Positions 11,066 to 25,786 of a stretch of 64,000 bases of DNA are shown one piece after another. The stretch spans positions 45,941 through 109,940 of IMG/VR virus record IMGVR_UViG_2926965794_000002. The stretch is one strand, 5' to 3'. This stretch comes from a virus. Its lineage: Duplodnaviria > Caudoviricetes. The position numbers and the translations under genes are program-made. Numbering within the stretch: position 1 is the first letter of the stretch; every line of letters starts with the position of its first letter. The notes under the pieces were generated by a model, which saw only the letters and a list, made by a program, of their open reading frames with translations, was not told the DNA's origin and did no database searches.

Positions 11066-11616
11066 TGGTTGTTCACCACCAGCTTAGGCGGCTCAGGTGC
11101 TTTGAACTTGCCGCCGACATTCTCGGCGGCCGCCTGACGCTCTTCCTTCTTCCCCAGCCTGGCGGGCTTCGGTGCCGCCGCAGCAGCGGCCTGTGGCTTT
11201 CCGCGCTCGCCAACGGAGCCGGCCGCGCGCGAGACCTTACCCATTTCGTCGAGCCGCTTGATTGCCGAGACGTTCTTCGCGTGCGCGGCCTCGAACAGAA
11301 GCTTGGTCACCTCAGCACGCTGGTTCGCGTATCCGTTCTCGAGCTCGTTGGCGCAGTGCTTGCGCAGGGTGTCGACATCGACCTTCAGCGCCCGGGCGAT
11401 CATGGCCTCAGACTCGCCGCAAAACTTCAGCCGCTCGACCGTCTGCCGGTCCGCGATCGACGGCGCCCATGCCGGACGACCGCCCTTGTTGCGCTTCGCC
11501 GAATTGCTCGACGTCCCGCGCTTTTTCGGTTTCGACGCCTTCCGCTTCGCCGGCTTCGCTTCAGCGCGATCGCTGGCTTCCGCAGGATTTTCGTCGGCGG
11601 TCGGTTTTTCGGTCAT
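11062..11616 (-). CDS. terS: Terminase small subunit
   Basis: Coupled to terL; 'GGRPAW', HTH 'IARALKVDVDTLRKH', 'LGKKEERQAAAE' tail. Confidence 0.8.
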   Translation of the reverse strand: MTEKPTADENPAEASDRAEAKPAKRKASKPKKRGTSSNSAKRNKGGRPAWAPSIADRQTVERLKFCGESEAMIARALKVDVDTLRKHCANELENGYANQRAEVTKLLFEAAHAKNVSAIKRLDEMGKVSRAAGSVGERGKPQAAAAAAPKPARLGKKEERQAAAENVGGKFKAPEPPKLVVNNQ

Positions 11617-11639: not shown

Positions 11640-11730
11640 CGGGCCGCCTCAAAAAAATTGTGCAGGTGCCACCCCGAGCGGTCCCGGGTCCGCGCGCCGT
11701 CGGGAAATTGCCCCGGGGGTACGGTTCGGC
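11640..11730 (-). other. Putative cos/packaging initiation region
   Basis: Non-coding stretch directly upstream of terS with ACCCCCGGGG, GGGACCG and T-tracts; position expected for HK97-like cos. Exact cut site not determinable. Confidence 0.4.
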
Positions 11731-12222
11731 CGGATTGCTAGCGAAATGGGCGGGTTTAGGCGCCGTTCTGGCGGGTTTTGCGTGCGATTGGCGCGGTTGA
11801 GGCGCGCCGAGCTATGGGCGCCGAGGGCTTGCCGGATGGCCGAGGCCGATAGCCTGGCCGATTAGTGTCAATCCGTTGTGCTGGCGCCGCTGGCGCCGCG
11901 CCGCGCGCGGTAACCGTCCGCCTTCTCTCTCGCCTAGCGTGCCTAGTGGCGTGGTGCGGTTGACGTTGCGGCCTTGCGTCCATCCGCCGAGGCCGAGGCG
12001 CCGAGGCCAGAAACGCAAAACCCGCCGAGGTTTCCCGCGGCGGGTTGGCTGCAGCGACACTGCGCCGAATGCCTGTTCTGAATCATAACTGGAGTCGGAG
12101 TGTCAAATCCGGTTCCGCTACTCGGCGGTGCATGACGGCGCCGCGCGGCCTCGGTCTCTCCCTGTTCTGTGATAGCTATTCGCTAGATGGACTGTTCAAA
12201 CTCACGGGATAGGGAAAACGAC

Positions 12223-12534
12223 ATGCCTGCAGCGAAGGCGAATAGCTCGGCGCCGAGACAAGCCGGCAAAGGCCGCGCCTATGCCTCGGCCGGCGCCACA
12301 CTGCGAATCAGCGCGGCCGAATTCATCGCTTGGCAGGAAGAGCTAGGCCTTTCGAATGGTGCTGCAGCTGCAGCGCTATTCGTTTCGCCCAATACGGTTA
12401 CAGCGGTGCGCGCGGAAGGCGGTAGCGCTGAACTGGCGCTGAAGTGTCGCGCCATCGCCGCCGGCCTTTCGCCAGCGCTACCCATGCAAGAGGCCTTCCG
12501 CCTCGGCCGGATAAACGCCATTCTGCAGGAATAG
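12223..12534 (+). CDS. HTH (XRE-like) regulator, first gene of the plus-strand cluster
   Basis: 'ISAAEFIAWQEELGLSNGAAAAALFVSPNTV' HTH pattern. Confidence 0.7.
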   Translation: MPAAKANSSAPRQAGKGRAYASAGATLRISAAEFIAWQEELGLSNGAAAAALFVSPNTVTAVRAEGGSAELALKCRAIAAGLSPALPMQEAFRLGRINAILQE

Positions 12535-12607
12535 GCCGCAATTCCCTGTAGTGTGAGGTCGGCCGGCCGAAACCCTATCTTTTTTCACAGAGCAGCGAAT
12601 TAGGGGA

Positions 12608-12640
12608 TTGACAGGCACCGCGCTTTCTAGGCATGTGCGG
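12608..12640 (+). promoter_or_regulatory. sigma70-like promoter (TTGACA) upstream of repeat A copy 1
   Basis: TTGACA at 12608; related -35 boxes at 14236, 17368 and 17881 also precede repeat A copies. Confidence 0.5.
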
Positions 12641-12683
12641 CGAACGGAACGCGCGATTGTGCGCAAATCAAAAGGCCGCCGAC

Positions 12684-12920
12684 ATGGCAAAGACTATCGC
12701 CTATCAAGTCACAGTCCGCCGCATTGCTACCGGTTGTGACTTCCATATCCGTCTATTCTCACAGTCCGCCGAGCATGCCAGCAACCGCGCCGTTGATCGC
12801 GCGCGCTTCGCTGAACGTATCTCACTGGCCAAATATCAGGAACTGAATGCCAAAGGCATTGCGTGCTTTCGCGTCATTTCTTGCGAAGTGTCCGCCGATC
12901 AATCGCGGCCGATTGGTTAG
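12684..12920 (+). CDS. Hypothetical protein (78 aa)
   Basis: ATG follows repeat A copy 1. Confidence 0.7.
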   Translation: MAKTIAYQVTVRRIATGCDFHIRLFSQSAEHASNRAVDRARFAERISLAKYQELNAKGIACFRVISCEVSADQSRPIG

Positions 12921-12928
12921 GCCGCGCC

Positions 12929-13096
12929 ATGCTCGCCGCTTTCATTTCCTTTTGCATCGCCAACCCGCCCTTTGCAGGTTTTATGCTTGCAGCGATCTAT
13001 ACCCTTTGCTGGGCCATCCTAGCTCCCTTTCTGTATGCGCCGGCAACGCCTCGGCGCCGTTCGATCCGGCGCCGCGCGCGCCGCAACCGCCGCTAG
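12929..13096 (+). CDS. Small membrane protein
   Basis: Hydrophobic MLAAFISFCIANPPFAGFMLAAIYTLCWAIL then a basic tail. Confidence 0.5.
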   Translation: MLAAFISFCIANPPFAGFMLAAIYTLCWAILAPFLYAPATPRRRSIRRRARRNRR

Positions 13097-13107
13097 GAGC
13101 AAAGCCA

Positions 13108-13344
13108 ATGCCGATTATCGTTTGCCATGATGGGGCGATCTACCGCGCCGAGATTTGGGGATTCCGCGGCACTTGCGCGCTAATCCATAAGGCTAGCGGC
13201 CGATATGCGGTTATCCGCGGCGCCGAGGCCGCGCGTTACCATGACGCAATCGCGGTTGCGTATCTGCGATTTGGTAGCATGCCGGGTGATACGCTCTATG
13301 CCTGGCTTTGGACCAATGCCGGCTTTCATCGTTTGGCCAGCTAG
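13108..13344 (+). CDS. Hypothetical protein (78 aa)
   Basis: AGGAG RBS, MPIIVCHDG... Confidence 0.6.
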   Translation: MPIIVCHDGAIYRAEIWGFRGTCALIHKASGRYAVIRGAEAARYHDAIAVAYLRFGSMPGDTLYAWLWTNAGFHRLAS

Positions 13345-13399
13345 GCCGCCTTCTAAGACTGCAACCGCGCGACTGTGCGCAAATCGAGAGGCTAGACCA

Positions 13400-13480
13400 A
13401 TGAGAGAGAATTCCGATTTTATCCTGTTCTGCGCGGCGGCTTTCGTCGGAACGTTTGTCATTTTCGCTTGCTGTATGTGA
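13400..13480 (+). CDS. 26-aa hydrophobic peptide
   Basis: ATG follows repeat A copy 2; MRENSDFILFCAAAFVGTFVIFACCM. Confidence 0.5.
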   Translation: MRENSDFILFCAAAFVGTFVIFACCM

Positions 13481-13490
13481 GGCGCGCGCC

Positions 13491-13730
13491 ATGGCAAAGC
13501 CTGATGATTTGACTTCCTACGCCTCGGCCGGATATGCCGCGCCGGCCTCGGCCAATCCGCACTTGTGGAGTAGCGCAACACACATTGCGTTTCGCCTCGG
13601 CCAATGGTTGCACGAAACCGGCCGGCCGGCCCCGCGGAACGTCCGCATGTCGCGCGGCCTTTCGATCCGCGCAAACGATATGCTGATACGCTGGAACGCC
13701 AAAACCGGCGCATGCGAACGGATCAACTAA
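13491..13730 (+). CDS. Hypothetical protein (79 aa)
   Basis: GAGG RBS, MAKPDDL... Confidence 0.6.
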   Translation: MAKPDDLTSYASAGYAAPASANPHLWSSATHIAFRLGQWLHETGRPAPRNVRMSRGLSIRANDMLIRWNAKTGACERIN

Positions 13731-13824
13731 CGCGATTTGCAGCCTATGCCGTGCAAGTCACGGCATAACCGGCAAACCGCCGAAACCGCGCAATTGTGCG
13801 CAAACTTGAAAAGGACATAGGCAA

Positions 13825-13929
13825 ATGAAGTATCGCAAGCATGATTCCGACCGCCGGCCGAGCGACAAGCGGACTCGCCGCGCCGCGGTGCGCGATGGCA
13901 AGCGCGCGTTTCTGAATTCTTGCCTCTAA
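13825..13929 (+). CDS. 34-aa basic peptide (below the ORF-track cutoff)
   Basis: ATG follows repeat A copy 3 (AAAGGA); MKYRKHDSDRRPSDKRTRRAAVRDGKRAFLNSCL. Confidence 0.55.
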   Translation: MKYRKHDSDRRPSDKRTRRAAVRDGKRAFLNSCL

Positions 13930-13942
13930 GGGAGCTAGGGCA

Positions 13943-14239
13943 ATGCCTGCAGTCACACTAGACGGCGCCGTCTATTTCAATTGCTGTACGGATTACTCGG
14001 CGCCGGATTGGTCCGCCTTTCGTTCGCTGGAAATTGGAGGTTGCAGTGTCCGGCATGATCCGGACACGGGCGAAAGCAATGTGACCGGAAACCGCGCGCC
14101 GGACGATTCCGCCTTTTGGACTGTATACGCTCGCGAGCATGACGGTTGCGCGCTCGCGATTACCGATTGCGGAATCCAAACGGAAACACACGCGATTGCC
14201 GAAACGCTATCCCGGCTTTCCGGCCTTCCCCTGATTTGA
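13943..14239 (+). CDS. Hypothetical acidic protein (98 aa)
   Basis: GGGAG RBS; tandem in the cluster. Confidence 0.65.
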   Translation: MPAVTLDGAVYFNCCTDYSAPDWSAFRSLEIGGCSVRHDPDTGESNVTGNRAPDDSAFWTVYAREHDGCALAITDCGIQTETHAIAETLSRLSGLPLI

Positions 14240-14327
14240 CGTTGCGACACTGCGCAGCATGTCTGCGCAGCACGGAACGCCAAAGCGGACCAACGCGCGA
14301 TTGTGCGCAATCGAAAGGCTTTCGACC

Positions 14328-14732
14328 ATGAACCGCAAACCGCAATTCGCTTGGCAATGTTCCTTTATGGGGACTGTCTACTATCGCGTTACGGATCAAA
14401 CCGGCAACTATGAGGTTTCCATCCGTCATTCCGTTTCCGACTATGAGCTATCGATAGCAAATGGCGATGACGTCCGGCGCGCCATGCGGACGGGAATCGG
14501 CATGCTTGTCCGATATGCCGAGGCATTGCCGGCGGATATCGTCGCGGCCTTCAATGCCTGGCGCGCCGCTGAACATGCTGCAGCCATGGCGAAACTTGAC
14601 GCCGCGCCGGAACGCTATGGCGTCATCGCGCCGGATGACGAATTGCGCAAGCCGCCAATGATCGCCCGCGCGGCCTCCTATGATCGCGCGCTGGGATGGA
14701 TTCCGGTTTGCGAACTGGAGCGCGCAGCATGA
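14328..14732 (+). CDS. Hypothetical protein (134 aa)
   Basis: ATG follows repeat A copy 4. Confidence 0.7.
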   Translation: MNRKPQFAWQCSFMGTVYYRVTDQTGNYEVSIRHSVSDYELSIANGDDVRRAMRTGIGMLVRYAEALPADIVAAFNAWRAAEHAAAMAKLDAAPERYGVIAPDDELRKPPMIARAASYDRALGWIPVCELERAA

Positions 14733-15058
14733 ACCGCGATGCATTCCGCCGCACCATTTCCGCGCTACGCGCCGAGGCGAGAGGCCGGCGCCATCATGTC
14801 GCGACATTCTGGATTGTCTGCAACGGCGTCGAATTCACGGCGCGCGCAGAACGGGCAATCGGTCCGGTTGATTTGCGGACGTCGCGTCTATCTTGCCGGC
14901 CTCGCCGAGCTCTTGCGGCCGAGGCCTTGCGTTGGGCGGCTCATTATCGGCGCGCCGCGAAACACTCGCCTATCGCCCGCGCTCGCAATCTAGAGGCCGC
15001 GCGCGAATGCATCGCCGAGGCCGCGGCCTATCATTCCGTCTTTAACCGCCTTCCGTGA
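14729..15058 (+). CDS. Hypothetical Arg-rich protein
   Basis: ATGA overlap with the upstream gene. Confidence 0.6.
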   Translation: MNRDAFRRTISALRAEARGRRHHVATFWIVCNGVEFTARAERAIGPVDLRTSRLSCRPRRALAAEALRWAAHYRRAAKHSPIARARNLEAARECIAEAAAYHSVFNRLP

Positions 15059-15071
15059 GGGATACCGCACC

Positions 15072-15410
15072 ATGAAAACAGCGCGCTTTTGGCACTATCA
15101 CAAATCCGGCCTTGTTCGTATTGCGTTGCGGACTGGCCAAACATTGCACCATTCGCACGGCGCCAGAACAGACGAGGGATGGACGCGCGAGTCCAATATC
15201 TTTTCTTTCGACGGGCAAACCGTGACTAACGAATGGTGCGACGATGGCGCGGATTGCGATGGACGCCTAACCTGCAATGGCGTTTGCAGCTGCGCGGCCG
15301 ATAGGCTTTCCGCGGGTTACCATGACGTTGAAAACGGCGCGCGGTTTCCGGACTGGCAAGCCGCCGCAAGCATACAACGCGATTATTCCGCCGAGGCTGC
15401 AGGCTACTAG
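15072..15410 (+). CDS. Hypothetical protein (112 aa)
   Basis: GAGGG RBS; 'TDEGW', 'DCDGRL', 'QRDYSAEAAGY'. Confidence 0.7.
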   Translation: MKTARFWHYHKSGLVRIALRTGQTLHHSHGARTDEGWTRESNIFSFDGQTVTNEWCDDGADCDGRLTCNGVCSCAADRLSAGYHDVENGARFPDWQAAASIQRDYSAEAAGY

Positions 15411-15467
15411 GCCGGCGCCGTCGAATTCAAACGCGCGATTGTGCGCAAATCGAAAGGACAGACAGAC

Positions 15468-15659
15468 ATGGCACGATATGGCGGCGATCCGCGATGGATC
15501 ATTACCAAATATCCGGCCAATGACCGGAACGGGCATTTTATCCCGGTAGGAACGCGCGCGTTCTATTATCCGGTTTCCAAACGCATGTTGACCGGCGCCG
15601 AGGCTGAACAGGCAAGCCGCGATTTTGAGGCCGCACGTTTCGACGAAAGCATGAGGTAA
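15468..15659 (+). CDS. Hypothetical protein (63 aa)
   Basis: ATG follows repeat A copy 5. Confidence 0.7.
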   Translation: MARYGGDPRWIITKYPANDRNGHFIPVGTRAFYYPVSKRMLTGAEAEQASRDFEAARFDESMR

Positions 15660-15665
15660 AGCGCA

Positions 15666-15965
15666 ATGGATTTTGCAGCATTCCAAGCCGCCGCGGCCGA
15701 GTTGGATAGCCGCATGAAAGAGGCCGGCGCGCGCCTCGGCGCCGTGACAGAAAGCCTTGCGGCCGAGATGGGGATTCCGGCGCGCGGTCCGATGGGATTG
15801 ACGCCGGACCGCATTAAGTTTGATCCGCGATACCGGCTTGCGAAGGCCGCGGCCGATATCGCCTTTGCGGAACTACGGGCATTCAATGGCCGGTATGCGC
15901 CGCGCTTCAAGAAAGAGATACGCGCCGAGATTGACGCGCGGCGCCGTGCGAAGTGCACCGCTTAA
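15666..15965 (+). CDS. Hypothetical phage protein (99 aa)
   Basis: GAGG RBS; helical, 'GPMGLTPD' motif. Confidence 0.7.
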   Translation: MDFAAFQAAAAELDSRMKEAGARLGAVTESLAAEMGIPARGPMGLTPDRIKFDPRYRLAKAAADIAFAELRAFNGRYAPRFKKEIRAEIDARRRAKCTA

Positions 15966-16027
15966 CCTGGCCTCGCCTTCCATCACTATTCCCGCGCGAT
16001 TGTGCGCAACAGAAAGGACAATGGACC

Positions 16028-17128
16028 ATGCAACAGAGTGATATGATCGCGGCAAAGGCTGCCAAGGCAACGGAACGGCGCGCGCTGGCAATTATCGCCT
16101 ATGACAACGCTAAACAGGATCCTGACGGCGCGAACTGGCAAGGGATTGCCGATTTGCTGCGCCTCTCCCTTCCCTCGGCGAAAGCCAAGGCCGCGCCGGC
16201 CGAGACTGGCGCCGACAACGGCGCGCCATGGTCGGATTATGATATCCCGGCAAGCGCGACGAAACGTCTAGGCAAATCGCCTATCATCGTTGTGACGTTC
16301 TCTTGCGGTGCCGTGGTCTGCGCGCCGGCGGTTTCCCTTCCCGGCAAGCCGGTAAACATCGGCCGCGGCTTGCGTGTTGCCTTTGCCTTCTACCGCGCGC
16401 GGATCGCCCGGGAATTCGGCAAGGCCTCGGCCATTGGTTCGGATTGCGTGAACGTTCCGGCCATCGTTTCCGCCATCTGTGACGCTACCGGCGCCGAGTA
16501 TGGCGCGGACGAATGCAACGCCAAAACCTCCGAATTCCGCCGCGGCGGTTTCGATCATGTCGCGCTTTCCGCCGAGGCCTCGGCCTTGCCGGAAAAGGCC
16601 GAGGCCGGCGAGTTGACGCGCGCCGACTTCTACCGCGGCCATTACCTCATTGCCTCGGCCGAGGCCGAGATTTTGGCCGGCGCCAATGAGGATCGCGCGG
16701 CCGAGTTGGGCGCGCAGATTAACGATTATCGCGCGCGCCTCGGCGGCTTGTCATGGCTGGAAATTGAAGCGCGGCGCCGCGCCGCAATCCGTGAGGCCAA
16801 AGCCGCGGCAAAGGCCGAGGCCGAGGCTATGGCCGAGGCCGGCCGGCGCGCCGAGCGCGAGGCCGAGGCGCACGCAGCTGCAGCCAAGGCCGAGGCCGAG
16901 GCGCCGCGGTTGCGGCTTGTCGGGGACAATTCCGCCAGCGTCGAAACCGCGGCGGCGCCATCCCTCCCAGATACGGCCGATTCCCTCCCGGTTGCGCCCG
17001 CGCCAAAATCGGCCGCGCCTCTCCCGGTTGCGCCTTCCCGCGTCGCGCGCTTCCTGGCCTCGTCATCGCTCGGCGCGCCTCGTCATTCCCTCCCGGTTGC
17101 GCCTTTCTGCGCGATCCGCTCGGCCTAG
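16028..17128 (+). CDS. Hypothetical Ala-rich protein (366 aa) with coiled-coil and low-complexity tail
   Basis: ATG follows repeat A copy 6; three LPVAP repeats at the C-terminus. Confidence 0.7.
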   Translation: MQQSDMIAAKAAKATERRALAIIAYDNAKQDPDGANWQGIADLLRLSLPSAKAKAAPAETGADNGAPWSDYDIPASATKRLGKSPIIVVTFSCGAVVCAPAVSLPGKPVNIGRGLRVAFAFYRARIAREFGKASAIGSDCVNVPAIVSAICDATGAEYGADECNAKTSEFRRGGFDHVALSAEASALPEKAEAGELTRADFYRGHYLIASAEAEILAGANEDRAAELGAQINDYRARLGGLSWLEIEARRRAAIREAKAAAKAEAEAMAEAGRRAEREAEAHAAAAKAEAEAPRLRLVGDNSASVETAAAPSLPDTADSLPVAPAPKSAAPLPVAPSRVARFLASSSLGAPRHSLPVAPFCAIRSA

Positions 17129-17143
17129 TCGGAGTCGCCAGCA

Positions 17144-17341
17144 ATGCACGCCTATGGTTTCGATATCCAACCGGACGGGGCAAGGTTTCGCCTAGTTGAC
17201 CGCGCCGAGTTCAACCATTGGGGCGAGTTATCGCCGCGGTTCGATACCGCGGCCAAGGCCGAGGAATACGCGCGCCGTTGCGACGAATTAAAGCGCGGCA
17301 AGCGCTCAACCGTCGAATTGCGCGCTTGGGAACTGACCTAG
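17144..17341 (+). CDS. Hypothetical protein (65 aa)
   Basis: GGAG RBS; tandem in the cluster. Confidence 0.6.
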   Translation: MHAYGFDIQPDGARFRLVDRAEFNHWGELSPRFDTAAKAEEYARRCDELKRGKRSTVELRAWELT

Positions 17342-17409
17342 GCCGCGGCGCGCCTCGGCCTCTCGAATTGACACGCGCGATTGTGCGCAAACGGAAAGGA
17401 ATACAGACA

Positions 17410-17823
17410 ATGCGGAAACCGACTCCCAACAAAGAAAAGGCCGCGCAGCTGGCGCGCCAAATCGCCAACATGACAGACGAGCAAAAGGCGCTTTGGCTGC
17501 AGCGCGCGCCGATCCTCACCGCGGACGCGCGGCCGATATCCGGCAAAAATCACATGCTGGCGGCGATGCAGTGCGAAGGCGCAACCATGCTCGGCGGCTT
17601 CAATCAATGGCTTGCCGCCGGCCGCGCGGTGCGGAAAGGCGAGTCCGCAATCTATATCTTTGCGCCGTCCGGCCGGCGCGCACCGGCCGAGGCCTCAGCG
17701 CCGCCGAGCGCGGAAGGCGCCGCGTCCGAGGCCGTGGCGGAGTCGGTGCGGTTTATCCTGGTGCCGGTTTTCGACGTTTCGCAAACCGAGGAAAAGCCGG
17801 CCGAACAAGCCGCCGCGGCATAG
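17410..17823 (+). CDS. ArdC-like N-terminal ssDNA-binding domain protein (antirestriction-associated)
   Basis: 'GGFNQWLAAGRAVRKGESAIYIFAP...VPVFDVSQTE' matches the ArdC-N signature; follows repeat A copy 7. Confidence 0.8.
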   Translation: MRKPTPNKEKAAQLARQIANMTDEQKALWLQRAPILTADARPISGKNHMLAAMQCEGATMLGGFNQWLAAGRAVRKGESAIYIFAPSGRRAPAEASAPPSAEGAASEAVAESVRFILVPVFDVSQTEEKPAEQAAAA

Positions 17824-17954
17824 TCCCGGCTACGATCGATTTTGCACCCCCGAGCTACGGCCGATTTTGCGCAACACCGCTTGACAGATTCGGCCGACAC
17901 AAATTAGAGAAGCACCCCCGCGCGATTGTGCGCAAATCGAAAGGACAGAAACAC

Positions 17955-20315
17955 ATGCAGCATTCCGCCACCTATTCGCCCGATGATAACAAGCTGCGCC
18001 TTTATCCGGCGCACCGCCTGGACGCCGAGGAGTACGCGCGCGTGAAGGCCGCCGGCTTCAAGTGGGCGCCGCGCCAAGAACTGTTCGTCAAACCGTCCTG
18101 GAGCCCAAGCGCCGAAGATTTGCTGATTGAGATGTGTGGCGAGATCGGCGACGAGGACAAGAGCCTGGTAGAGCGCGCCGAGGATCGCGCCGACCGCTTC
18201 GACGAGTACAGCGACAAGCGGCTTTCAGAAGCCAACCGCGCGCGCGAGGCCGTGGACCAGATCGCGGAACGGTTCGCGATGGGGCAGCCGATCTTGGTCG
18301 GCCATCATTCGGAGAAGAGCGCCCGCAGGGACAAAGAGCGCATGGATTCCGGCATGCGCAAGGCTCTCAAACTCTGGGACACCTCGAAATATTGGACGGC
18401 GCGCGCGGCCGGCGCCATCGCTCACGCGAAATACAAGGAACTGCCGGCGGTGCGTCATCGCCGCATCAAGGGCATTGAGTCCGATAAGCGGAAGCTGGAA
18501 CGCCAGCAAGCAGAAACCGAAAGGCAGCTGAAGGCCTGGCAGATCGTCGCCGGCATCACCGACCTGGAGAAGCAGCGCGCGGCCGGTCTGACCGTGGCCA
18601 ACAGCAGCGGTTATTGGTCGATGTCGTTTCCGCTGGCTGACTATCCGCGCGATCCGCCCGCCTCGCAGTATGAGGGACCGATGGGCCTTTGGTCCGCAAT
18701 TGACGGGAACGTCATCACCGCCGCGCAGGCCGCCGCTATCGCGATTCCGAGCCTGCAGCGTTCCGGGCCTTGGCGAGACCGTTGGGTTGCGCACTATGAC
18801 AACCGGCTGGCCTATGAACGCGCGATGTTGGCCGAGCAGATCGGCACCGAGGCGACCGCCAACCCGCTGGCCGACCGCTTCGCCTTCGCCGTCGGCGGCG
18901 AGGTGCAGACACGTCGCAGCGATGAATGGGTTACGGTGTTGAAGGTCAACCGCGGCGCTAACGGTTCAGTTTCCAGCATGACGACGACCACGCCGGCCGG
19001 ATCGCGCGGCAAGCAAGCGCATTGGAAGGTGGAGAGCATCCGCGATTATCGCGCGCCGAGCGCCGAGAACGTCGCCGCAGCGAAGGCCGCAACCAAGCTG
19101 CCGCCGCTCTGCAACTATCCCGGCGAGGGATTCCGCGAGATGACGGAGACCGAATGGAAGGGCCGCCGGCAGTTCTCGGATTTCTCCTATATCGGCAAGG
19201 TGAAGGAGACCGAGACCCACGGCGCGCATCGCGTGCGGCAAATGCCGACGCCCGGCGAATTCTGGAAGAAACAGCAAGTTTTCATTACGGATGCAAAGCG
19301 CGTCGATCCGCCCAAGATCGCGCCGGCAGCCGAGCCGCAGGCGCCCGCGGAATTCGTCGCCGAGTATGTAGCGCCGCCCGCTGTTGATATTGACGCCATG
19401 CTGGCAACGGTCGGCGAGATCACCGGCGCACCGGTCGAGACCGTCACCCAGGACGAGCCCGAGGCCGTGCCGGCGCTGGTCCCGGTTGCGCCCGCGGAGG
19501 AGCCGCGACGCCTCGGCGACGCTAAGGCGGAGGCCCAGCGCATCGGCGCTGAGATCATCACCGGACTCGGCCAGTTCCGTGTTGGCCTCGGCCAGCACGT
19601 CACCGACTGGTGCGACGATGAGGCGACGGCCTGGCGGCAGTTCTGCGAACTGGCTGGCGTGCCGTTCGAAGCCGAGGCGGTGCCGGCGGACCTGCGGCCG
19701 CGCGTTCTCGCCCCGGTCCCGGATACGGCCGATTCGCCGGAGCCGACCGCGGCGGACAGCTTCGAGGCAATGCGGGCCATGCTGAAAGGCGGCGGCGTTC
19801 AAGTCGTCGTTGCGCCTCAACTCTTCCCGACCTCGAACGAACTTGCCGCGGACGTCGCCGAGGCCGCCGACATCCGGCCCGGGCAGCGCATCTTGGAGCC
19901 GAGCGCAGGAACCGGCGCGCTTATCGAGGCCGCGCGCAACTGTGCCGATGGTCTCCAGGTGGTGGCGGTCGAGATCAACACCAAACTGTGCCAGGCGCTG
20001 GCCAACCGCTTCACCGGGTTGACCGTCATCAATGCGGACTTTCTCGACATGGCCGGCGCAACGGACAAGTTTGACCGGATCATCATGAATCCGCCATTCG
20101 AGCGCGGCGCCGACATCAAGCACATTGAGAACGCGCGGCGCTTCCTGAAACCTGACGGCCGACTGGTCGCCATCTGCGCCGACGGACCGCGCCAGCGCGC
20201 GAAGCTCGAACCGATCGCGGTGGAGTATCGCGCCCTGCCCCCGGGATCCTTCAAGGCCGCCGGAACGATGGTCAACACGGCGCTCGTCGTGATCGATGGG
20301 CCGCCGCCGAGATAG
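17955..20315 (+). CDS. DUF3560-domain protein fused to an N6-adenine-type methyltransferase
   Basis: 'ATYSPDDNKLRLY', 'GQPILVGHHSEKSARRD'; C-terminal 'LFPT', 'ILEPSAGTG', 'IMNPPF'; follows repeat A copy 8. Confidence 0.85.
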   Translation: MQHSATYSPDDNKLRLYPAHRLDAEEYARVKAAGFKWAPRQELFVKPSWSPSAEDLLIEMCGEIGDEDKSLVERAEDRADRFDEYSDKRLSEANRAREAVDQIAERFAMGQPILVGHHSEKSARRDKERMDSGMRKALKLWDTSKYWTARAAGAIAHAKYKELPAVRHRRIKGIESDKRKLERQQAETERQLKAWQIVAGITDLEKQRAAGLTVANSSGYWSMSFPLADYPRDPPASQYEGPMGLWSAIDGNVITAAQAAAIAIPSLQRSGPWRDRWVAHYDNRLAYERAMLAEQIGTEATANPLADRFAFAVGGEVQTRRSDEWVTVLKVNRGANGSVSSMTTTTPAGSRGKQAHWKVESIRDYRAPSAENVAAAKAATKLPPLCNYPGEGFREMTETEWKGRRQFSDFSYIGKVKETETHGAHRVRQMPTPGEFWKKQQVFITDAKRVDPPKIAPAAEPQAPAEFVAEYVAPPAVDIDAMLATVGEITGAPVETVTQDEPEAVPALVPVAPAEEPRRLGDAKAEAQRIGAEIITGLGQFRVGLGQHVTDWCDDEATAWRQFCELAGVPFEAEAVPADLRPRVLAPVPDTADSPEPTAADSFEAMRAMLKGGGVQVVVAPQLFPTSNELAADVAEAADIRPGQRILEPSAGTGALIEAARNCADGLQVVAVEINTKLCQALANRFTGLTVINADFLDMAGATDKFDRIIMNPPFERGADIKHIENARRFLKPDGRLVAICADGPRQRAKLEPIAVEYRALPPGSFKAAGTMVNTALVVIDGPPPR

Positions 20316-20391
20316 CCCCCGGCTGCGCCTACCTCCCGGCTACGATCGATTTTGAACCGCGCAACTGTGCGCAATTTTGAAAGGACACCGA

Positions 20392-20898
20392 ATGCCCATG
20401 ACCTTCGAGCAGTTTCAGGCCACCCGCACCGAATGCGCCGACATCGGCGCAGCCATCAGCACCGATATGGGGATAACCGAGCCAGTGCCCGGCTTTCTGT
20501 ACCTCGGGACGTTCTATATCGAGGGCATGACGTCAACCTGGCCCGACGAGGCGCGCGCGCAGGGGACGTATCACCTCCTGATCGAGCGCGACGAATGGAT
20601 TAGCGACGACCTCGAAGCGTTGGAGCGCCACCTTTTTGAGTTTGCGCTCGCCTCTGGTGCCGAAATGGGAATTGACGACCTCTGCGCCGAGTACAAGACC
20701 TGGAACAAGGCGCAAGGCCTCAACCTCAGCAGCGCTGATGAGCATCTGGCCGACGAGACGCTTTCCGAGGAGCAGCGCGGTTGGCTGCGCGACTTCTCCA
20801 GCCGTTGGGAAGAGGCTGAGCAGCGCGCGCGGCGTCACAAGTGCCAGCACCGCGACAGCGGGCGCGGCGTCTGCATCGACTGCGGCGCAGCCCTTTGA
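20392..20898 (+). CDS. Hypothetical acidic protein with C-terminal Cys/His cluster
   Basis: ATG follows repeat A copy 9; ends 'CQHRDSGRGVCIDCG'. Confidence 0.7.
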   Translation: MPMTFEQFQATRTECADIGAAISTDMGITEPVPGFLYLGTFYIEGMTSTWPDEARAQGTYHLLIERDEWISDDLEALERHLFEFALASGAEMGIDDLCAEYKTWNKAQGLNLSSADEHLADETLSEEQRGWLRDFSSRWEEAEQRARRHKCQHRDSGRGVCIDCGAAL

Positions 20899-20933
20899 CC
20901 CCTCGGCTACGACCGATTTGACGGAGGCTCCTC

Positions 20934-21101
20934 ATGCTCACAATTGAGATAATCGCGACCGCGACGGGCAAATGCATCAAGCGCTGTGCGTTCGAGGCCG
21001 CGACGGTTTCGGATCGCGCCGCGGTGTTCCTGTCATTCCTCAATTACTGGGAACGGCATTTCGGACAGCAGACCGATTACACCTGGCGCACACCCGCATA
21101 G
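20934..21101 (+). CDS. Hypothetical protein (55 aa; below the ORF-track cutoff)
   Basis: GGAGG RBS after a repeat B copy; MLTIEIIATATGKCIKRCAFEAA... Confidence 0.6.
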   Translation: MLTIEIIATATGKCIKRCAFEAATVSDRAAVFLSFLNYWERHFGQQTDYTWRTPA

Positions 21102-21116
21102 GAAGGAGGTTGACTC

Positions 21117-21434
21117 ATGACGACCAAGAAGCCCGATATCTACTCCGGCCCCATCGAAGGCGCGCGCGCCGCCATCATCGAAGCGCTCGGCGGTGCATTC
21201 GCAACCCCGCCAGCCTCGCCGCCCGAACGCCAGCTGACCGACGACGAGAAGGCCTTTATCGCCCGCATGGCGCCGCACGTCATGGCCGGCAAGACGATGG
21301 AGGAAGCCGCGGCGGCCGTCGTCCAGGACGATGAGCGGCTTTGGCTGACCGCTACGGAGGACTCCGACGTTGGCCGCGCGATCCGCGACGAGCTCGCCGC
21401 CACGGTCTACGCCGCGGCGCGATCTGCGACATAG
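21117..21434 (+). CDS. Hypothetical protein (105 aa)
   Basis: AAGGAGG RBS. Confidence 0.7.
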   Translation: MTTKKPDIYSGPIEGARAAIIEALGGAFATPPASPPERQLTDDEKAFIARMAPHVMAGKTMEEAAAAVVQDDERLWLTATEDSDVGRAIRDELAATVYAAARSAT

Positions 21435-21509
21435 AGACGGCTGCACCTCCCGCTTACGACCGATTTCCCAATACCCCCTCGGCTACGGCCGATTTGAGAG
21501 GAGTCCGAA

Positions 21510-22133
21510 ATGCCTCGACGCAAATCCAAACTGCCGGCACCGAAACCGCCGATCGAGATCGGCGACTATTTCGCCCATCGCGGTCTCGACAATGTCACTG
21601 TCCGTCTAAAAACAGGCCCTCTTGACAACAACTTCTTTTCGCTCCGCGACGAGCACATCACGCAGTGCTCGACTTTCGAAGGTGCCGAGCGCCTGGCAGC
21701 GCTGATGAATCAGGCTCGCGACCTCGCCCGTGACTATCGCATGGTCTCCAATATCGGCGGTCAATTCGGCGGCCGCGATCAGATCGCAGGCTACATCGCG
21801 CGTCACGTCGCCAATGCCCTCGACGTGCCACACCGATACGTCTCACCGGACGAGCACACCCGCGAGACGCTCAATGAATACGGCCGTCAGGTCGGCGATC
21901 TCGCGCGGTTCTTCGCCTTCCTGGATGCGACCGGTACGCCGGCCACGCTCGATGACTTCAAGGCCCGGGCCATGCTGCGCCGGCATGCTATCAACGACCG
22001 CGACTGCACGTACTGCGACCACGACCGTTCCCGCGAGGTTGTCCGTGCTTGGCGCCGCACCTTCGATCCGTCGACCGCCGCGGCAGATCGCGCCGCGCAG
22101 GTTCTCCGGGAGATAGAGGCCGCAACATCATGA
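21510..22133 (+). CDS. Hypothetical protein (207 aa)
   Basis: GAGGAG RBS after paired repeat B copies. Confidence 0.7.
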   Translation: MPRRKSKLPAPKPPIEIGDYFAHRGLDNVTVRLKTGPLDNNFFSLRDEHITQCSTFEGAERLAALMNQARDLARDYRMVSNIGGQFGGRDQIAGYIARHVANALDVPHRYVSPDEHTRETLNEYGRQVGDLARFFAFLDATGTPATLDDFKARAMLRRHAINDRDCTYCDHDRSREVVRAWRRTFDPSTAAADRAAQVLREIEAATS

Positions 22134-22405
22134 CCAACGAACAAATGGTTTCAGCCGCCGGCATCAAGGTCGTGACCCGTGCCGAGTTCGACGCCGCGAC
22201 CGACGTTCCCGCCGGCGTGCGCCTGGTGGCCAATCGGCTGTTCAAACGCTGGGGCGGCGACTTCGTGGTGTACGACCCGGCCGGCGGCGATGACGGCTGG
22301 CTGCTCATCGACGATGATCGAGAACAGATCATCGGCGAGACGATCGAACACCTCGGACGGCTCAACCCTGAGCCGTCGGCGCCGGCGCAAGGCTCGCTTT
22401 TCTGA
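22130..22405 (+). CDS. Hypothetical protein
   Basis: ATGA coupling, MTNEQMV... Confidence 0.6.
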   Translation: MTNEQMVSAAGIKVVTRAEFDAATDVPAGVRLVANRLFKRWGGDFVVYDPAGGDDGWLLIDDDREQIIGETIEHLGRLNPEPSAPAQGSLF

Positions 22406-22623
22406 TGACACTGAGGCCCTGGAAAGAGTTGACCCGCGACCAGCGGGCCGAGCGCCTCGGCGACGCGCGGCGATGGAAGAAGCCCGCCGAGCCTGGAGAC
22501 AAGCGGGCAGCCGAACTGCTGCGGCGGCTCGAGTCCGGAGAACCCTTGACCCGGGCCGACCTAAAGGAGGCCCGCGCGCTGCTGCGCGCCAAACGAGGAA
22601 GGAATCAAGATGAGACAGGTTAG
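22405..22623 (+). CDS. Hypothetical protein (72 aa)
   Basis: TGATG coupling. Confidence 0.55.
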   Translation: MTLRPWKELTRDQRAERLGDARRWKKPAEPGDKRAAELLRRLESGEPLTRADLKEARALLRAKRGRNQDETG

Positions 22624-22975
22624 ACGCGTGCCCGCCGATTGGCAGCACCCCCGCAACTCCGGAGGCCGGTATGTCCCGCTGCTGGAGACTGCCCCGGATG
22701 CGCCCGCGCCCGATCCTACCCGCCACATGCCGGCTTGGCCAGCGGCGCAGCGCACGCACTGGCAGCTGTACGAGACCACCAGCGCCGGCACGCCGGTTTC
22801 GCCACCCTGCCCGTCACCCGAGGCGTTGGCCAAATGGCTGGCCGGCCACCATGTGGAGGCCGCACCAGGCTTCACGGGAACGGAGGCGCAATGGCTCGGC
22901 GCGATCAAGCGCGGCACCATCCCGCCGGTGATGACCGTCGGCAAGCGCCAGGTCAATCCGCTCGACTACACCTGA
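22610..22975 (+). CDS. Hypothetical phage protein (121 aa)
   Basis: 'RRVPADWQHP', 'WQLYETTSAGTPVSP...EALAKWL'. Confidence 0.7.
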   Translation: MRQVRRVPADWQHPRNSGGRYVPLLETAPDAPAPDPTRHMPAWPAAQRTHWQLYETTSAGTPVSPPCPSPEALAKWLAGHHVEAAPGFTGTEAQWLGAIKRGTIPPVMTVGKRQVNPLDYT

Positions 22976-23068
22976 TCGGCCGGGACTCCCGGCTACGATC
23001 GATTTTGTGCTACCCCCTCGGCTACGGCCGATTCCGGGCGACTGTGCCCAACCGGAAAGGATCTCGAG

Positions 23069-23392
23069 ATGTCACCACCCCGATTTGCTCACCGCAAGAT
23101 CACGAGCGAAGATTTCAAGGCCGAGCTGGCCAAGCAAGGCATGTCGGTGCCGGCGTTCGCGCGCGTCTGGTGCCAGAACCTGTCTACGGTGAAGAAGTGG
23201 GCGAATGGCGGGAACGATATCCCGACCTGGGTGCCGATCGCGCTCACCATGATGACGCTGCCGAATGCCCATGGCACCGCTCGCATGGCGGCGGCGGCGA
23301 TGATCGAAGAGGATCGGCTGCATCCCGAGCTCGGGAAATTCCCCTATCAGAAGCTTCGGCAGATGCCGGCGGACGACGAGATCGAGGAATAG
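23069..23392 (+). CDS. HTH (XRE-like) regulator, last gene of the cluster
   Basis: 'DFKAELAKQGMSVPAFARVWCQNLSTVKKWANGGNDIP'; preceded by a degenerate repeat A. Confidence 0.75.
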   Translation: MSPPRFAHRKITSEDFKAELAKQGMSVPAFARVWCQNLSTVKKWANGGNDIPTWVPIALTMMTLPNAHGTARMAAAAMIEEDRLHPELGKFPYQKLRQMPADDEIEE

Positions 23393-23400
23393 CCCCCGGG

Positions 23401-23616
23401 CTACGATCGATTTTGCGCGGCCCGGCTGCGCTTCTTCTTCGTCGTGCGCCGATTCTTCGGCTGCGATCGCTTCGCTGCCGGCGTCGTCGGCGCGTCCTTT
23501 GCTGCGGCCGCGGCATCACGGGCATCAAGCTCGCGCTTCAACGCCTGATTACGCTCCCAGTTGGCTTCGCGGAAAGCGCGGAGTCCGTCAGCGCGCGTAG
23601 TTGGCTCTTTTGACAT
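23401..23616 (-). CDS. Small basic hypothetical protein
   Basis: GGAGG RBS downstream of the HNH gene. Confidence 0.5.
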   Translation of the reverse strand: MSKEPTTRADGLRAFREANWERNQALKRELDARDAAAAAKDAPTTPAAKRSQPKNRRTTKKKRSRAAQNRS

Positions 23617-23625
23617 GCCTCCCTC

Positions 23626-23970
23626 CTACGATCTCATGCGGTTTGCTCGAGCCTGAATGCCCGACCTGGTGTTGTGCGAGTTGCAGGCGCAGCGCCCGTT
23701 GGTCAGATCCAGCGCTAGTTCCGGATTGTCGCGGATATCCCTGATGTGGTCGGCATACATCTGGTGACCGTTGGCGCGGCTGCGCTCGCAGCGGAGGCCG
23801 TTCTCGACATACTCGCAACGCCAGCCGGCGCGCCGCTTCACCTTCTCGGCCCAGTCCTTGTGCTCGGCGGTCTGGTAGTGAGGATCCGCGCGCTTCGGCA
23901 GGATTGTCGCCTTCCGGGTGTCCAGCGTCTGGATGCGCGAGCTGAGGCTCGGAATGCGAGCTCGAGTCAC
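23626..23970 (-). CDS. HNH endonuclease (HK97 gp74-like packaging cofactor)
   Basis: 'RAGWRCE...C...ADHI...NGRCACNSHN'. Confidence 0.8.
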   Translation of the reverse strand: MTRARIPSLSSRIQTLDTRKATILPKRADPHYQTAEHKDWAEKVKRRAGWRCEYVENGLRCERSRANGHQMYADHIRDIRDNPELALDLTNGRCACNSHNTRSGIQARANRMRS

Positions 23971-24171: not shown

Positions 24172-25083
24172 CTACTTCCGCAAGCCCATGCCGGCAGCGG
24201 TCTTCAACCGCCGTACCGCGTCCCATGTCCGGTCGATGATCTCGACACCGTCGTAAAGCCTCACCAGCGCGTTCAGCGCGATCCGGAAGTCGGAGTTGTT
24301 GGTGCGATGCTCCTCGCCGCCATGCATCCGGACGTCCTCGCTGCTGCACTCGAGACCGATCCTGACGAGGAGGATGTCGAACTGCCGCTGGCCGAGCCGG
24401 CGCTCGACATCCCGGAGACGTCCGCTGGCCTCGAGGGCGATGGTGTGCGAGGGCGAGCCGCCGCCGCCGCCATCGACCTTGTCCTGCAGCGCGAAGCCTC
24501 GCGATCCGTGGAACGTGGCCAAGTCGAAATCGCGTCGGAAGCGATCTGCGGCGCTCTGGCGCAGCTTGTCCTCTGGATCCGCGGCGCCGCGTTTCTTGGA
24601 TTCCGTGAGATTGAGGTGCGACGCTCGGACCGTGTCGACCAGTACGTTGAGCCTTGGATTTTGTGGGTCCGGGATGGTGTGCTTGCGCCGGCCGCTGGCC
24701 AGGCGCTCGGCTTCGTCTGCCGCCTTCTGCTCTTTTTTGGTGAGCGGCTTGCCCCAGAGATTCAGCGGGTCGGTGGAGTCGATCGTCCCGCTTCGGAAGC
24801 CCTGCTGGAACAGCTTGTTCCGGTGCAAGGCCTCCTTCACGCGGCGCGCACCCTCGGTGTCGCGGTCCATCAGGTACTCGACCACGAACTCCTGGATGAC
24901 GCGCTGCCGGCGGCGCGTCTCCTCAAACAGGAGCTGACCTTCATAGGTCAGCCCCTTGTACGACTCCATTGGTCGAGCGCGCCGGATGTCGCGCATGAAA
25001 GCACGGGCTCGGCGATCGCGCTCCTTGTCGACGTGTACCGGTGCGATATCCGTGATCTGTGCTTGAGACATTCTATCCTCCAC
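24172..25083 (-). CDS. DUF6456-like protein; candidate late-gene activator/antiterminator
   Basis: 'QSAADRFRRDFDLA...KVDGGGGG...FRIALNALVRLY'; occupies the Q-equivalent position. Start may be 25071. Confidence 0.55.
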   Translation of the reverse strand: MEDRMSQAQITDIAPVHVDKERDRRARAFMRDIRRARPMESYKGLTYEGQLLFEETRRRQRVIQEFVVEYLMDRDTEGARRVKEALHRNKLFQQGFRSGTIDSTDPLNLWGKPLTKKEQKAADEAERLASGRRKHTIPDPQNPRLNVLVDTVRASHLNLTESKKRGAADPEDKLRQSAADRFRRDFDLATFHGSRGFALQDKVDGGGGGSPSHTIALEASGRLRDVERRLGQRQFDILLVRIGLECSSEDVRMHGGEEHRTNNSDFRIALNALVRLYDGVEIIDRTWDAVRRLKTAAGMGLRK

Positions 25084-25786
25084 GCAGAATCACGAATAAG
25101 TTTTGCGGAGGTGATTTGTCTACGATTGCAAGCGGAAAGTTGACGGCTCATCCACCGTCGATCTGTCTTTGACCCGGGAGGTACTCATACATCGCCGGTG
25201 ATTTCGCTTCGCCGGACATCGACGCCTCTGGTCAATCGTAGCTAAGTTGCGATAGTCGACGTGGCGACCTAACCGAGGACTTCCGGTTACCCTCGAACGG
25301 CCGACCTTTCCGGTGGTCATACAGACCGTCAGCCAACAGGAGACATCAGGAGGTTGCCCTCGCTAGGCCACCAACTGGACTATTAGAGACGGAGCGTAGG
25401 ACCGCGGGCGCAGCCACCACTTACTAGTAGCGATCTTACGACGCACAGCCGCGCCAAGAAGCAACCTTTACAATAGCACCAACGCTGTGGCACCATCCAG
25501 ACGTGCATGAACTTTTGACGTTGTCTGGCCGACGGAGACGGCATGGCGCGCGACGTTCTCACATGCCAGCGCAGAGTTGAGCGCGACCATCATCGCACGG
25601 TTGCGGCGGGATTAGCTTTGCTTTTCGCCGGTTTGGTATTTGGCTTCATACCATTCGCGCATGCCGACGATTTTGAACCTGTGAGCACTCTGCAATTCGT
25701 GGCCCGCCTGGTCTGGGTGGTACTGAAGTGCTGTAGCTATTGGTTATTGCAGATTGAAGAGAGGGCGTTTTTTGGAGGAGGCGTTC

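What the first reader, a model, noticed from the sequence alone, without database searches (positions are those of the whole stretch)
11700..23420. Candidate 'leading region' of a temperate phage: an 11.7-kb repeat-regulated array of small genes at the predicted first-injected genome end
Seen: ~25 co-oriented, mostly 26-200 aa ORFs lie on the opposite strand between terS and the packaging HNH gene. They include an ArdC-N protein and a DUF3560-MTase, have an HTH gene at each end, several TTGAC(A/G) boxes, two dispersed repeat families and a distinct oligonucleotide composition. Established: in HK97-like phages HNH and terS are normally neighbours around cos; in lambda the end packaged last is ejected first; ArdC and orphan MTases are typical of plasmid leading regions rich in anti-defence genes. 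Inference: cos lies at ~11.7 kb, so this block enters the cell first, is transcribed inward from the end, and acts as a co-regulated anti-defence or host-takeover module. The unknown ORFs are candidate new anti-restriction, anti-CRISPR or other counter-defence proteins.
Basis: partly seen in the sequence, partly recalled or inferred. Interest (0 to 1): 0.88.

Follow-up and report, generated by a model that had tools for sequence, protein, structure and literature searches.

The report
Accessory gene array beside phage cos
A Bradyrhizobium-type prophage carries a conserved 11-kb array of about 23 small genes, including two typical of plasmid "first-to-enter" regions, right next to the predicted end of its packaged DNA, so it probably enters a new cell first and helps the phage establish itself, though its timing and function are untested.

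Summary
Window 12.2-23.4 kb has about 23 co-oriented ATG-start genes on the strand opposite to terS/TerL and HNH. They include a 137-aa ArdC-N protein and a DUF3560-N6A methyltransferase. Two block-specific repeat families are present, and the tetranucleotide composition of 12-20 kb is the most deviant in the 110-kb record.

The main new result is the position of cos. A conserved non-coding motif upstream of terS aligns with the 10-nt cohesive end written at both ends of the Bcep176 record. It also aligns with the start of the DMF5-T1 record and of five viral contigs. This places the predicted cohesive end at window 11671-11680. Block-less relatives show HNH, motif, terS in that order. At least eight relatives carry the same inverted block between HNH and the motif.

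If the lambda rule holds (last packaged, first ejected), the block is the first DNA in. It is read inward from a conserved TTGACA promoter 0.93 kb from the end.

Anti-defence function and early timing remain inference; most genes are unknown. The scan had already flagged the start-linked hairpin on related prophages. Verdict: a phage analogue of a plasmid leading region, a new variant of a known kind; interest 0.62.

The parts
11062..11616 (-). terS (small terminase); probable start ATG at 11616
   Evidence: Overlaps the TerL start. phrog_12540 E 4e-18. Homologous to terS of relatives.
11671..11680 (-). Predicted 10-nt cohesive end (CGCTCGGGGT on the - strand), inside a conserved cos motif spanning about 11650-11735
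   Evidence: Alignment A4. The same columns hold CGCACGTTCC, which is present at both ends of the Bcep176 record. The DMF5-T1 record and 5 IMG/VR contigs start exactly 10 nt further on. The motif is conserved in all relatives.
12015..12106 (-). Candidate late promoter (TTGACA at 12101-12106) followed by an intrinsic terminator hairpin (12015-12046), facing cos and terS
   Evidence: Conserved in relatives. Fold with a stem of about 11 bp plus a U-run, z -2.2. The layout resembles lambda PR'/tR'; this is inference.
12223..12534 (+). g12223, a 103-aa HTH-like protein; first gene from the end and its own transcription unit
   Evidence: Weak HTH Pfam hits and XRE PDB hits. Conserved in 8 relatives.
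12608..12641 (+). P_block: -35 TTGACA plus a conserved TAGGCATGTGCGG stretch, just upstream of the first A repeat
   Evidence: TTGAC and GCATGT are invariant in 6 of 6 aligned phages.
12651..23051 (+). Repeat A: 10 copies with core starts at 12651, 13367, 13788, 14295, 15433, 15994, 17375, 17920, 20359 and 23036. Possible hairpin GCGCR-AYNG-UGCGC, 5-9 nt before the SD
   Evidence: There are 67 copies in 6 phages. The copy before g23069 carries the paired change GGGC..GCCC in all relatives. Position 5 varies between G and A opposite a fixed U.
12684..15659 (+). Proximal small genes of low GC3 (about 10 ORFs of 26-165 aa, all of unknown function)
   Evidence: Partly variable among relatives; one cassette (g15468) sits in a different position in G001 and G003.
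15666..17341 (+). g15666 (phrog_7560), g16028 (366 aa, core gene, no known fold) and g17144
   Evidence: Homologues only in Bradyrhizobium, Rhodopseudomonas and unnamed metagenome contigs.
17410..17823 (+). ArdC-N-only protein (137 aa; no metalloprotease half)
   Evidence: PF08401 26.4 bits, above the cut-off. 65-94% identical in relatives.
17955..20315 (+). DUF3560 + N6-adenine-type methyltransferase (786 aa)
   Evidence: Full-length homologues at about 50% identity lie on conjugative plasmids among SSB, DUF932, RadC and MTase genes.
16968..23412 (+). Repeat B: 11 copies, 9 of them just after stop codons and some in tandem. Partly a UACG-loop hairpin followed by a T-run
   Evidence: 11-20 copies on the block strand in relatives.
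20392..22975 (+). Distal small genes (7 ORFs of 55-207 aa). Three are acidic (pI 4.4-4.7). g20934, g21510 and g22405 have no match in the relatives; g20392 matches only in its C-terminal part in two of them
23069..23392 (+). g23069, the terminal HTH protein (Aca-like position), preceded by the variant A repeat
23401..23970 (-). HNH endonuclease (23626-23970) plus a 71-aa basic protein (23401-23616). This is the end of the replication operon, convergent with the block, with only 8 nt between the stop codons

Best explanation
The block is a conserved accessory operon array. It occupies the last-packaged, and therefore probably first-ejected, end of a cos-type HK97/phiE125-like temperate siphovirus of Bradyrhizobium-like hosts.

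Shown or strongly supported:
- The ancestral order is HNH, cos, terS. In this lineage about 11.7 kb has come to lie between HNH and cos, in inverted orientation.
- The predicted cohesive end is at 11671-11680.
- The array starts 0.54 kb from that end and is read inward from a conserved sigma-70-type promoter at 12.6 kb.
- The late promoter faces outward across cos, so it can reach terS only after the genome circularises.

Inferred mechanism:
- On infection this end enters first.
- Host RNA polymerase transcribes the array before the rest of the genome is in or circular.
- The ArdC-N protein and the DUF3560-methyltransferase protect the incoming DNA from restriction.
- The unknown small proteins serve establishment or counter-defence.
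- The hairpin before each ribosome-binding site, together with the two related HTH proteins at the ends, lets one factor switch the whole set off again, as Aca proteins do for anti-CRISPR operons.
For: Position of cos:
- The motif upstream of terS aligns column for column with the 10-mer found at both ends of the Bcep176 record.
- It also aligns with the starts of the DMF5-T1 record and of five viral contigs, which lie exactly 10 nt further on.
- At least 8 block-less contigs show HNH, motif and terS co-oriented.
- On the HNH side only 8 nt separate the stop codons, which leaves no room for cos there.

Conservation:
- The same inverted block is present in 8 relatives with TerL at 57-82% identity.
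- There is a core of about 11 genes plus variable cassettes.

Promoter: the TTGACA-type promoter is conserved in 6 of 6 phages.

Gene content:
- ArdC-N scores above the Pfam cut-off.
- The methyltransferase has full-length homologues on conjugative plasmids. 3955 of the best 5000 matching records are typed conjugative.
- In pAOVO01 the homologue lies among SSB, DUF932, RadC and C5-MTase genes.
- Orphan MTases are a hallmark of plasmid leading regions (PMC11541004). ArdC-N is an early-phase ssDNA binder (PMC5512222).

Regulon: 67 A copies in 6 phages sit at a fixed distance from start codons. The terminal gene has an XRE-like fold. Aca1 and Aca2 bind 5'-UTR hairpins that end about 20 nt before the start codon (PMC13551039).
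Against: - No termini, transcripts or phenotypes were measured.
- Ejection order is borrowed from lambda.
- A cos genome may enter within minutes, so the head start could be small.
- 21 of 23 genes have no assignable function. None matches a known anti-defence family other than ArdC-N and the MTase.
- Short palindromes are not avoided (observed/expected about 1), and 6-mer palindromes are more frequent than elsewhere.
- Low GC3 argues against codon adaptation for fast translation, which is the opposite of plasmid leading regions (PMC13478746).
- A relative carries a PARIS defence pair at the distal end, which fits a lysogen-expressed accessory island.
- Metagenome contig ends do not pile up sharply at the motif.
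Confidence: 0.55

Rival explanations
1. The HNH/cos junction is simply a permissive insertion hotspot between two essential operons. The block is then a moron-type accessory island that acts mainly in the lysogen (self-methylation, superinfection exclusion, host modulation), and its closeness to cos has no role in entry.
For: - Atypical composition and low GC3 suggest acquired DNA.
- Cargo varies and cassettes are shuffled among relatives.
- One relative has a PARIS defence pair appended in the same orientation.
- A sigma-70-type promoter could be active in the lysogen.
- No restriction-site avoidance was found.
Against: - A core of about 11 genes in fixed order is kept across phages whose TerL has diverged to 57% identity.
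- ArdC-N and DUF3560-MTase are entry-phase functions in plasmids (PMC5512222).
- The inward orientation from the end and a dedicated translational motif point to a coordinated burst rather than scattered morons.
Confidence: 0.27
2. The block is an independent mobile element (satellite, island or transposon) inserted into the prophage.
For: Opposite strand, distinct composition, and its own repeats and regulators.
Against: - No tyrosine or serine recombinase anywhere in the 110-kb record.
- No flanking direct or inverted repeats beyond chance.
- Same site and orientation in at least 8 diverged relatives.
- No replication or packaging genes of its own.
Confidence: 0.03
3. The conserved motif upstream of terS is a late-operon regulatory site, not cos. 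The termini lie elsewhere or packaging is headful, so the block is internal to the virion DNA.
For: No termini were measured for this phage. Metagenome contig ends near the motif are scattered. Only one DNA run holds the sequence, and only as contigs.
Against: - The motif aligns with a 10-mer duplicated at both ends of a cultured phage record, and with six independent sequence starts 10 nt away.
- HNH together with this TerL clade marks cos packaging.
- A separate promoter and terminator pair already lies upstream.
Confidence: 0.1

Closest known systems
Leading regions of conjugative plasmids (Samuel et al. 2024, PMC11541004)
   Same: - Lies next to the point where DNA entry begins.
- Genes are co-oriented for transcription from the entering end.
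- Holds an orphan methyltransferase, an ssDNA-binding anti-restriction domain and many small unknown genes.
- The MTase is homologous (about 50% identity) to genes in such plasmid arrays.
   Different: - The entering DNA is double-stranded phage DNA from a cos end, not single-stranded DNA from oriT.
- No SSB, PsiB or ArdA genes and no ssDNA promoters were seen.
- GC3 is low rather than codon-adapted.
- It carries a start-linked hairpin regulon.
Entry-end early modules of lytic phages: T7 class I genes (0.3/Ocr), T5 first-step-transfer pre-early region, SPO1 host-takeover module (own knowledge; PMC6873191 and PMC10644984 for SPO1 and T5/BF23 context)
   Same: A cluster of small genes at the genome end that enters first, with repeated regulatory signals, devoted to takeover or anti-restriction.
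   Different: - This is a temperate cos siphovirus with no terminal redundancy, and no staged injection is known.
- In lambda and HK97 the first-entering end carries late or HNH genes instead.
Aca-regulated anti-CRISPR operons (Aca1 and Aca2 bind promoter DNA and 5'-UTR hairpins; PMC13551039)
   Same: An HTH gene is the last gene of the operon. A conserved hairpin lies just downstream of the promoter and ends about 17-20 nt before the start codon.
   Different: - The hairpin recurs before 10 cistrons across 10.4 kb, not only in one 5' UTR.
- No known Acr gene is present.
- The HTH proteins have no sequence match to Aca families.
Start-associated sequences of Cluster K mycobacteriophages (PMC3203893)
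   Same: A short conserved motif at a fixed distance upstream of the start codons of a subset of genes, in one orientation.
   Different: The sequence is unrelated. Here the motif is a GC hairpin separate from the SD, confined to one block, and in a proteobacterial phage.
HK97/phiE125/Bcep176-type packaging module (HNH, cos, terS, TerL)
   Same: Homologous TerL (57%), HNH and cos motif.
   Different: HNH and cos are separated by the 11.7-kb inverted block.

Membership tests
Plasmid-type leading region (functional class) | Lies at the DNA end that enters the recipient first | tested here: inconclusive
   cos is placed at 11671-11680 by homology, so the block is at the non-terS end. Ejection order itself cannot be tested here.
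Plasmid-type leading region (functional class) | Genes oriented for transcription inward from the entering end | tested here: met
   All 23 genes are on the + strand and read away from 11.68 kb. The promoter is conserved.
Plasmid-type leading region (functional class) | Enriched in anti-defence genes, orphan MTases and SSBs | tested here: inconclusive
   An MTase and ArdC-N are present. No SSB, ArdA, KlcA or PsiB hit in Pfam or PHROGs. 21 genes are unknown.
ArdC (pSa-type anti-restriction protein) | N-terminal ssDNA-binding ArdC-N domain | tested here: met
   PF08401 26.4 bits, cut-off 22.6.
ArdC (pSa-type anti-restriction protein) | C-terminal metalloprotease domain | tested here: not met
   The protein is 137 aa and ends in a low-complexity tail; there is no second domain.
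HK97-like cos packaging module | HNH endonuclease plus TerL of the cos clade | tested here: met
   phrog_589 E 9e-9. TerL Pfam hits and 57% identity to Bcep176.
HK97-like cos packaging module | HNH gene directly adjacent to cos and terS | tested here: not met
   11.7 kb intervene in the window. The genes are adjacent in block-less relatives.
HK97-like cos packaging module | Physical 10-nt cohesive ends | not testable with these tools
   Only homology to the Bcep176 and DMF5-T1 record ends is available. No raw reads exist for this phage.
Aca-type regulated anti-defence operon | HTH regulator encoded at the operon end | tested here: inconclusive
   The AF2 N-domain of g23069 resembles XRE HTH proteins, including Aca1, Aca2 and Aca10, but with E 0.5-2.5.
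Aca-type regulated anti-defence operon | Conserved hairpin in the 5' UTR about 20 nt before the start codon | tested here: met
   10 copies in the window and 67 in six phages. Pairing is kept through one double change and through G-U/A-U variation.
Aca-type regulated anti-defence operon | Known Acr gene in the operon; regulator binds the motif | not tested
   No anti-CRISPR library is available here. Binding needs an experiment.
Independent integrative element | Own recombinase and att or terminal repeats | tested here: not met
   PF00589 and PF00239 are absent from the 110-kb record. No flanking repeats were found.

The most novel reading that the evidence does not exclude
Some temperate cos phages have evolved a true counterpart of the plasmid leading region. 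This would be a dedicated, first-entering establishment module, partly built from plasmid leading-region genes. It would be transcribed inward from the chromosome end before circularisation and governed as one translational regulon by a start-linked RNA hairpin and Aca-like HTH proteins. On this reading, its roughly 20 unknown genes are a reservoir of new counter-defence proteins.
Probability: 0.35. Interest if true: 0.8.

Novelty: new variant of a known kind. Interest (0 to 1): 0.62.

Why it matters
Plasmid leading regions were recently shown to concentrate anti-defence genes. [quoted passage not shown]

This phage family offers a clean test case:
- the ordinary HNH, cos, terS junction has been split by a conserved, inward-facing array that shares genes with plasmid leading regions;
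- block-less relatives are available as natural controls;
- a precise prediction of the terminus is now in hand.

If the reading holds, gene position relative to cos becomes a usable guide for finding counter-defence genes in temperate phages. The hairpin regulon would extend Aca-type control to a whole 10-kb module.

Tried and rejected
- Megablast of the block against phages and plasmids: no match.
- tblastn of ArdC-N against plasmids: no match.
- Sequencing runs: one DNA holder, kept as contigs and probably the source; no RNA holder listed.
- Metagenome scan for the cos motif: 63 hits, but contig ends near the motif are scattered (15 and 39 nt upstream; 9, 12 and 36 nt downstream), so there is no sharp pile-up. 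Many hits are probably chance or too diverged.
- E. coli-type promoter scan: not enriched.
- Rfam: no family at E <= 1.
- Restriction-site avoidance: rejected. The GATC and TCGA deficits are explained by trinucleotide content, and 6-mer palindromes are enriched.
- Protein atlas: no usable lead for g16028 or g22610.
- g16028 model (pLDDT 78): no convincing match in PDB Foldseek, VIA-align wide (only its long helix matched) or BFVD.
- PADLOC: no defence family for eight block proteins.
- PDB sequence searches for HNH and the two HTH families: nothing significant.
- The hairpins are not thermodynamically exceptional against shuffles.
- Repeat B as a simple hairpin: only partly consistent, because the base after the loop varies without compensation.

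Full report
**Setting.** The window is the right 64 kb of a 109,940-bp IMG/VR provirus record with about 65% G+C. Homologues of one block gene lie on Bradyrhizobium chromosomes of 8.87 and 8.91 Mb and in Rhodopseudomonas. The element is therefore an integrated prophage of Nitrobacteraceae. No tyrosine or serine recombinase lies inside the record.

On the minus strand, running leftward from 11.6 kb, lie:
- terS;
- TerL (PF03354, PF20441);
- portal;
- an S49 protease;
- an HK97-fold capsid gene;
- further left, tail, O-acetylase and endolysin genes.

Also on the minus strand, running from about 42.7 kb down to 23.4 kb, lies a replication operon:
- a DnaN-like clamp and a second methyltransferase;
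- primase and DnaB;
- two small genes;
- an HNH endonuclease (phrog_589 E 9e-9);
- a 71-aa basic protein.

**The observation.** Between these two operons, on the plus strand, lie 23 genes from 12223 to 23392. All start with ATG.
- Pfam and PHROGs name only two of them. One is a 137-aa ArdC-N-only protein at 17410-17823. The other is a 786-aa DUF3560 + N6A-type methyltransferase at 17955-20315.
- Repeat A (16-nt core) occurs 10 times. All copies are on the plus strand, lie only inside the block, and end about 17 nt before an ATG, with a Shine-Dalgarno sequence in between.
- Repeat B occurs 11 times in the distal half. Nine copies sit directly after stop codons, and two are embedded in coding sequence, where they encode PDTADS.
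- The composition is the most aberrant of the whole record. GCGC and CGCG are 2.3-fold enriched. GATC and TCGA are 2.7-fold depleted. GC3 is 0.57-0.64 for most proximal genes.
- This is not restriction-site avoidance. Markov-corrected observed/expected ratios are near 1, and 6-mer palindromes are more frequent than elsewhere.

**Conservation.** Repeat A led to ten related proviruses. In five of them (G001-G005), and in three more found through TerL (L060-L062), the homologous block sits in the same place and the same inverted orientation. TerL identity to the window is only 57-82%.
- About 11 genes form a core: g12223, g14328, g15468, g15666, g16028, ArdC-N, the MTase, g21117, g22130, g22610 and g23069.
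- The remaining genes vary between phages.
- One cassette has moved in G001 and G003.
- Relatives carry about 2.5 kb of extra genes, each with its own A repeat, between ArdC-N and the MTase.
- G004 has a PARIS pair (AriA E 2e-23, AriB E 3e-16) appended after the last gene.

**Where cos is.**
- On the HNH side, the stop of g23069 (23392) and the stop of the 71-aa minus-strand gene (23401) leave 8 nt between them. No site fits there.
- The only sizeable gap is 11.62-12.22 kb.
- Within that gap, 35-120 nt upstream of the terS ATG, lies a multi-part motif conserved in every relative.
- A pattern scan found the same motif in contigs that lack the block. At least eight of them show HNH (27-44% identical), motif and terS co-oriented and adjacent. 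That is the ordinary HK97-type layout.
- The motif is also homologous to the cos region of the nearest cultured TerL relatives.
- The Bcep176 record carries the same 10-mer, CGCACGTTCC, at both ends, next to HNH at one end and terS at the other.
- The DMF5-T1 record and five independent IMG/VR contigs, one of them a 42.5-kb contig, begin exactly 10 nt further on.
- Two classes of ends 10 nt apart indicate a 10-nt cohesive end.
- In the window the homologous 10-mer is CGCTCGGGGT on the minus strand, at 11671-11680, 55 nt upstream of the terS start.
- I rate this placement at about 85%. It remains an inference from homology.

**Regulatory layout.**
- Between cos and the block lie a minus-strand TTGACA (12101-12106) and a strong minus-strand terminator hairpin (12015-12046).
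- Both face cos and terS and are conserved in relatives.
- This resembles the lambda PR'/tR' arrangement. It implies that late transcription reaches terS only across a closed cos.
- g12223, an HTH-like protein, is a separate unit.
- At 12608 a TTGACA box plus an invariant downstream stretch is conserved in 6 of 6 phages. It directly precedes the first A repeat.
- The array is therefore read inward from 0.93 kb inside the predicted end. It can be transcribed from linear, partly entered DNA.

**The repeats.**
- Sixty-seven A copies from six phages keep a 5-bp stem and a 4-nt loop.
- The copy in front of g23069 has GGGC..GCCC in place of GCGC..GCGC in all six phages.
- The closing pair varies between G-U and A-U.
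- One copy has a G-U outer pair.
- This leans towards an RNA hairpin. A dyad DNA operator with half-sites 10 bp apart is not excluded.
- Earlier notes of this scan (e1-5766620, e1-5766643) reached the same reading on related prophages.
- g23069 folds with an XRE-type N-domain (pLDDT 80-89). Most of its top Foldseek rows are HTH regulators, including Aca1, Aca2 and Aca10, but with E 0.5-2.5.
- g23069 is weakly related to g12223.
- The published Aca1 and Aca2 systems combine a terminal HTH gene, a promoter operator and a 5'-UTR hairpin that ends about 20 nt before the start codon (PMC13551039). That matches the layout here.

**Function.**
- The methyltransferase has full-length homologues on conjugative plasmids at about 50% identity. 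Of the best 5000 matching plasmid records, 3955 are typed conjugative.
- In pAOVO01 it sits in a co-oriented array with SSB, DUF932, RadC, an exonuclease and a C5-MTase. That is a leading-region gene set as defined in PMC11541004.
- ArdC-N is the ssDNA-binding module of early-phase effectors (PMC5512222).
- The largest unknown, g16028, gave a confident model (pLDDT 78) with no informative fold match.
- Eight block proteins match no PADLOC defence model.

**Reading.**
- By the lambda rule (own knowledge), packaging starts at cos and proceeds through terS, and the last-packaged end leaves first.
- On that rule the block is the first DNA to enter.
- In lambda and HK97 that end carries late or HNH genes. 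Here it carries an inward-facing, host-promoter-driven array with plasmid leading-region genes.
- I therefore favour an establishment or counter-restriction module (0.55).
- The main rival is a lysogen-acting accessory island at a permissive junction (0.27).
- Expression timing, entry order and phenotypes are all untested.

Noticed in passing
L057:2542-4874 (relative G004, IMGVR_UViG_2906610324_000001): A PARIS defence pair (AriA E 2e-23, AriB/DUF4435 E 3e-16) is appended, co-oriented, after the homologue of the last block gene. PARIS is triggered by anti-restriction proteins, so its place next to an anti-restriction-type array is notable.
   Followed up: partly
window 11950-12110: The stretch holding the minus-strand terminator and the sequence around it is nearly identical in the window, G002 and G005 but replaced in G001, G003 and G004. 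It could encode a short leader or attenuator RNA of the late operon. A plus-strand TTGACG at 11960 is also conserved.
   Followed up: partly
window 16968-16982 and 19720-19734: Repeat-B-like sequences lie inside two coding regions (g16028 and the MTase). In both they encode the same peptide, PDTADS, in Pro-rich linkers.
   Followed up: no
window 13400-13480 and 13825-13929: Two A repeats are followed by micro-ORFs of only 26 and 34 codons. The 34-codon one (MKYRKHDS...) is conserved in relatives.
   Followed up: no
window 25000-27400: A low-GC island (0.50-0.53) sits between the HNH-proximal genes and DnaB. It holds a 370-aa plus-strand ORF (25754-26866) and was not annotated.
   Followed up: no
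whole record G000 (109,940 bp): No tyrosine or serine recombinase was detected although IMG/VR calls the record a provirus. The integrase may lie outside the record, or another mechanism may be used.
   Followed up: partly
relatives G001 and L060-L062, downstream of the protease gene: The capsid query matches two adjacent genes (44-59% and 33-34% identity), which suggests tandem capsid-like paralogues in this phage family.
   Followed up: no
window 31356-34554: The replication operon carries a second, 660-aa DNA methyltransferase (phrog_116) and a DnaN-like sliding clamp. The phage therefore encodes at least two methyltransferases.
   Followed up: no
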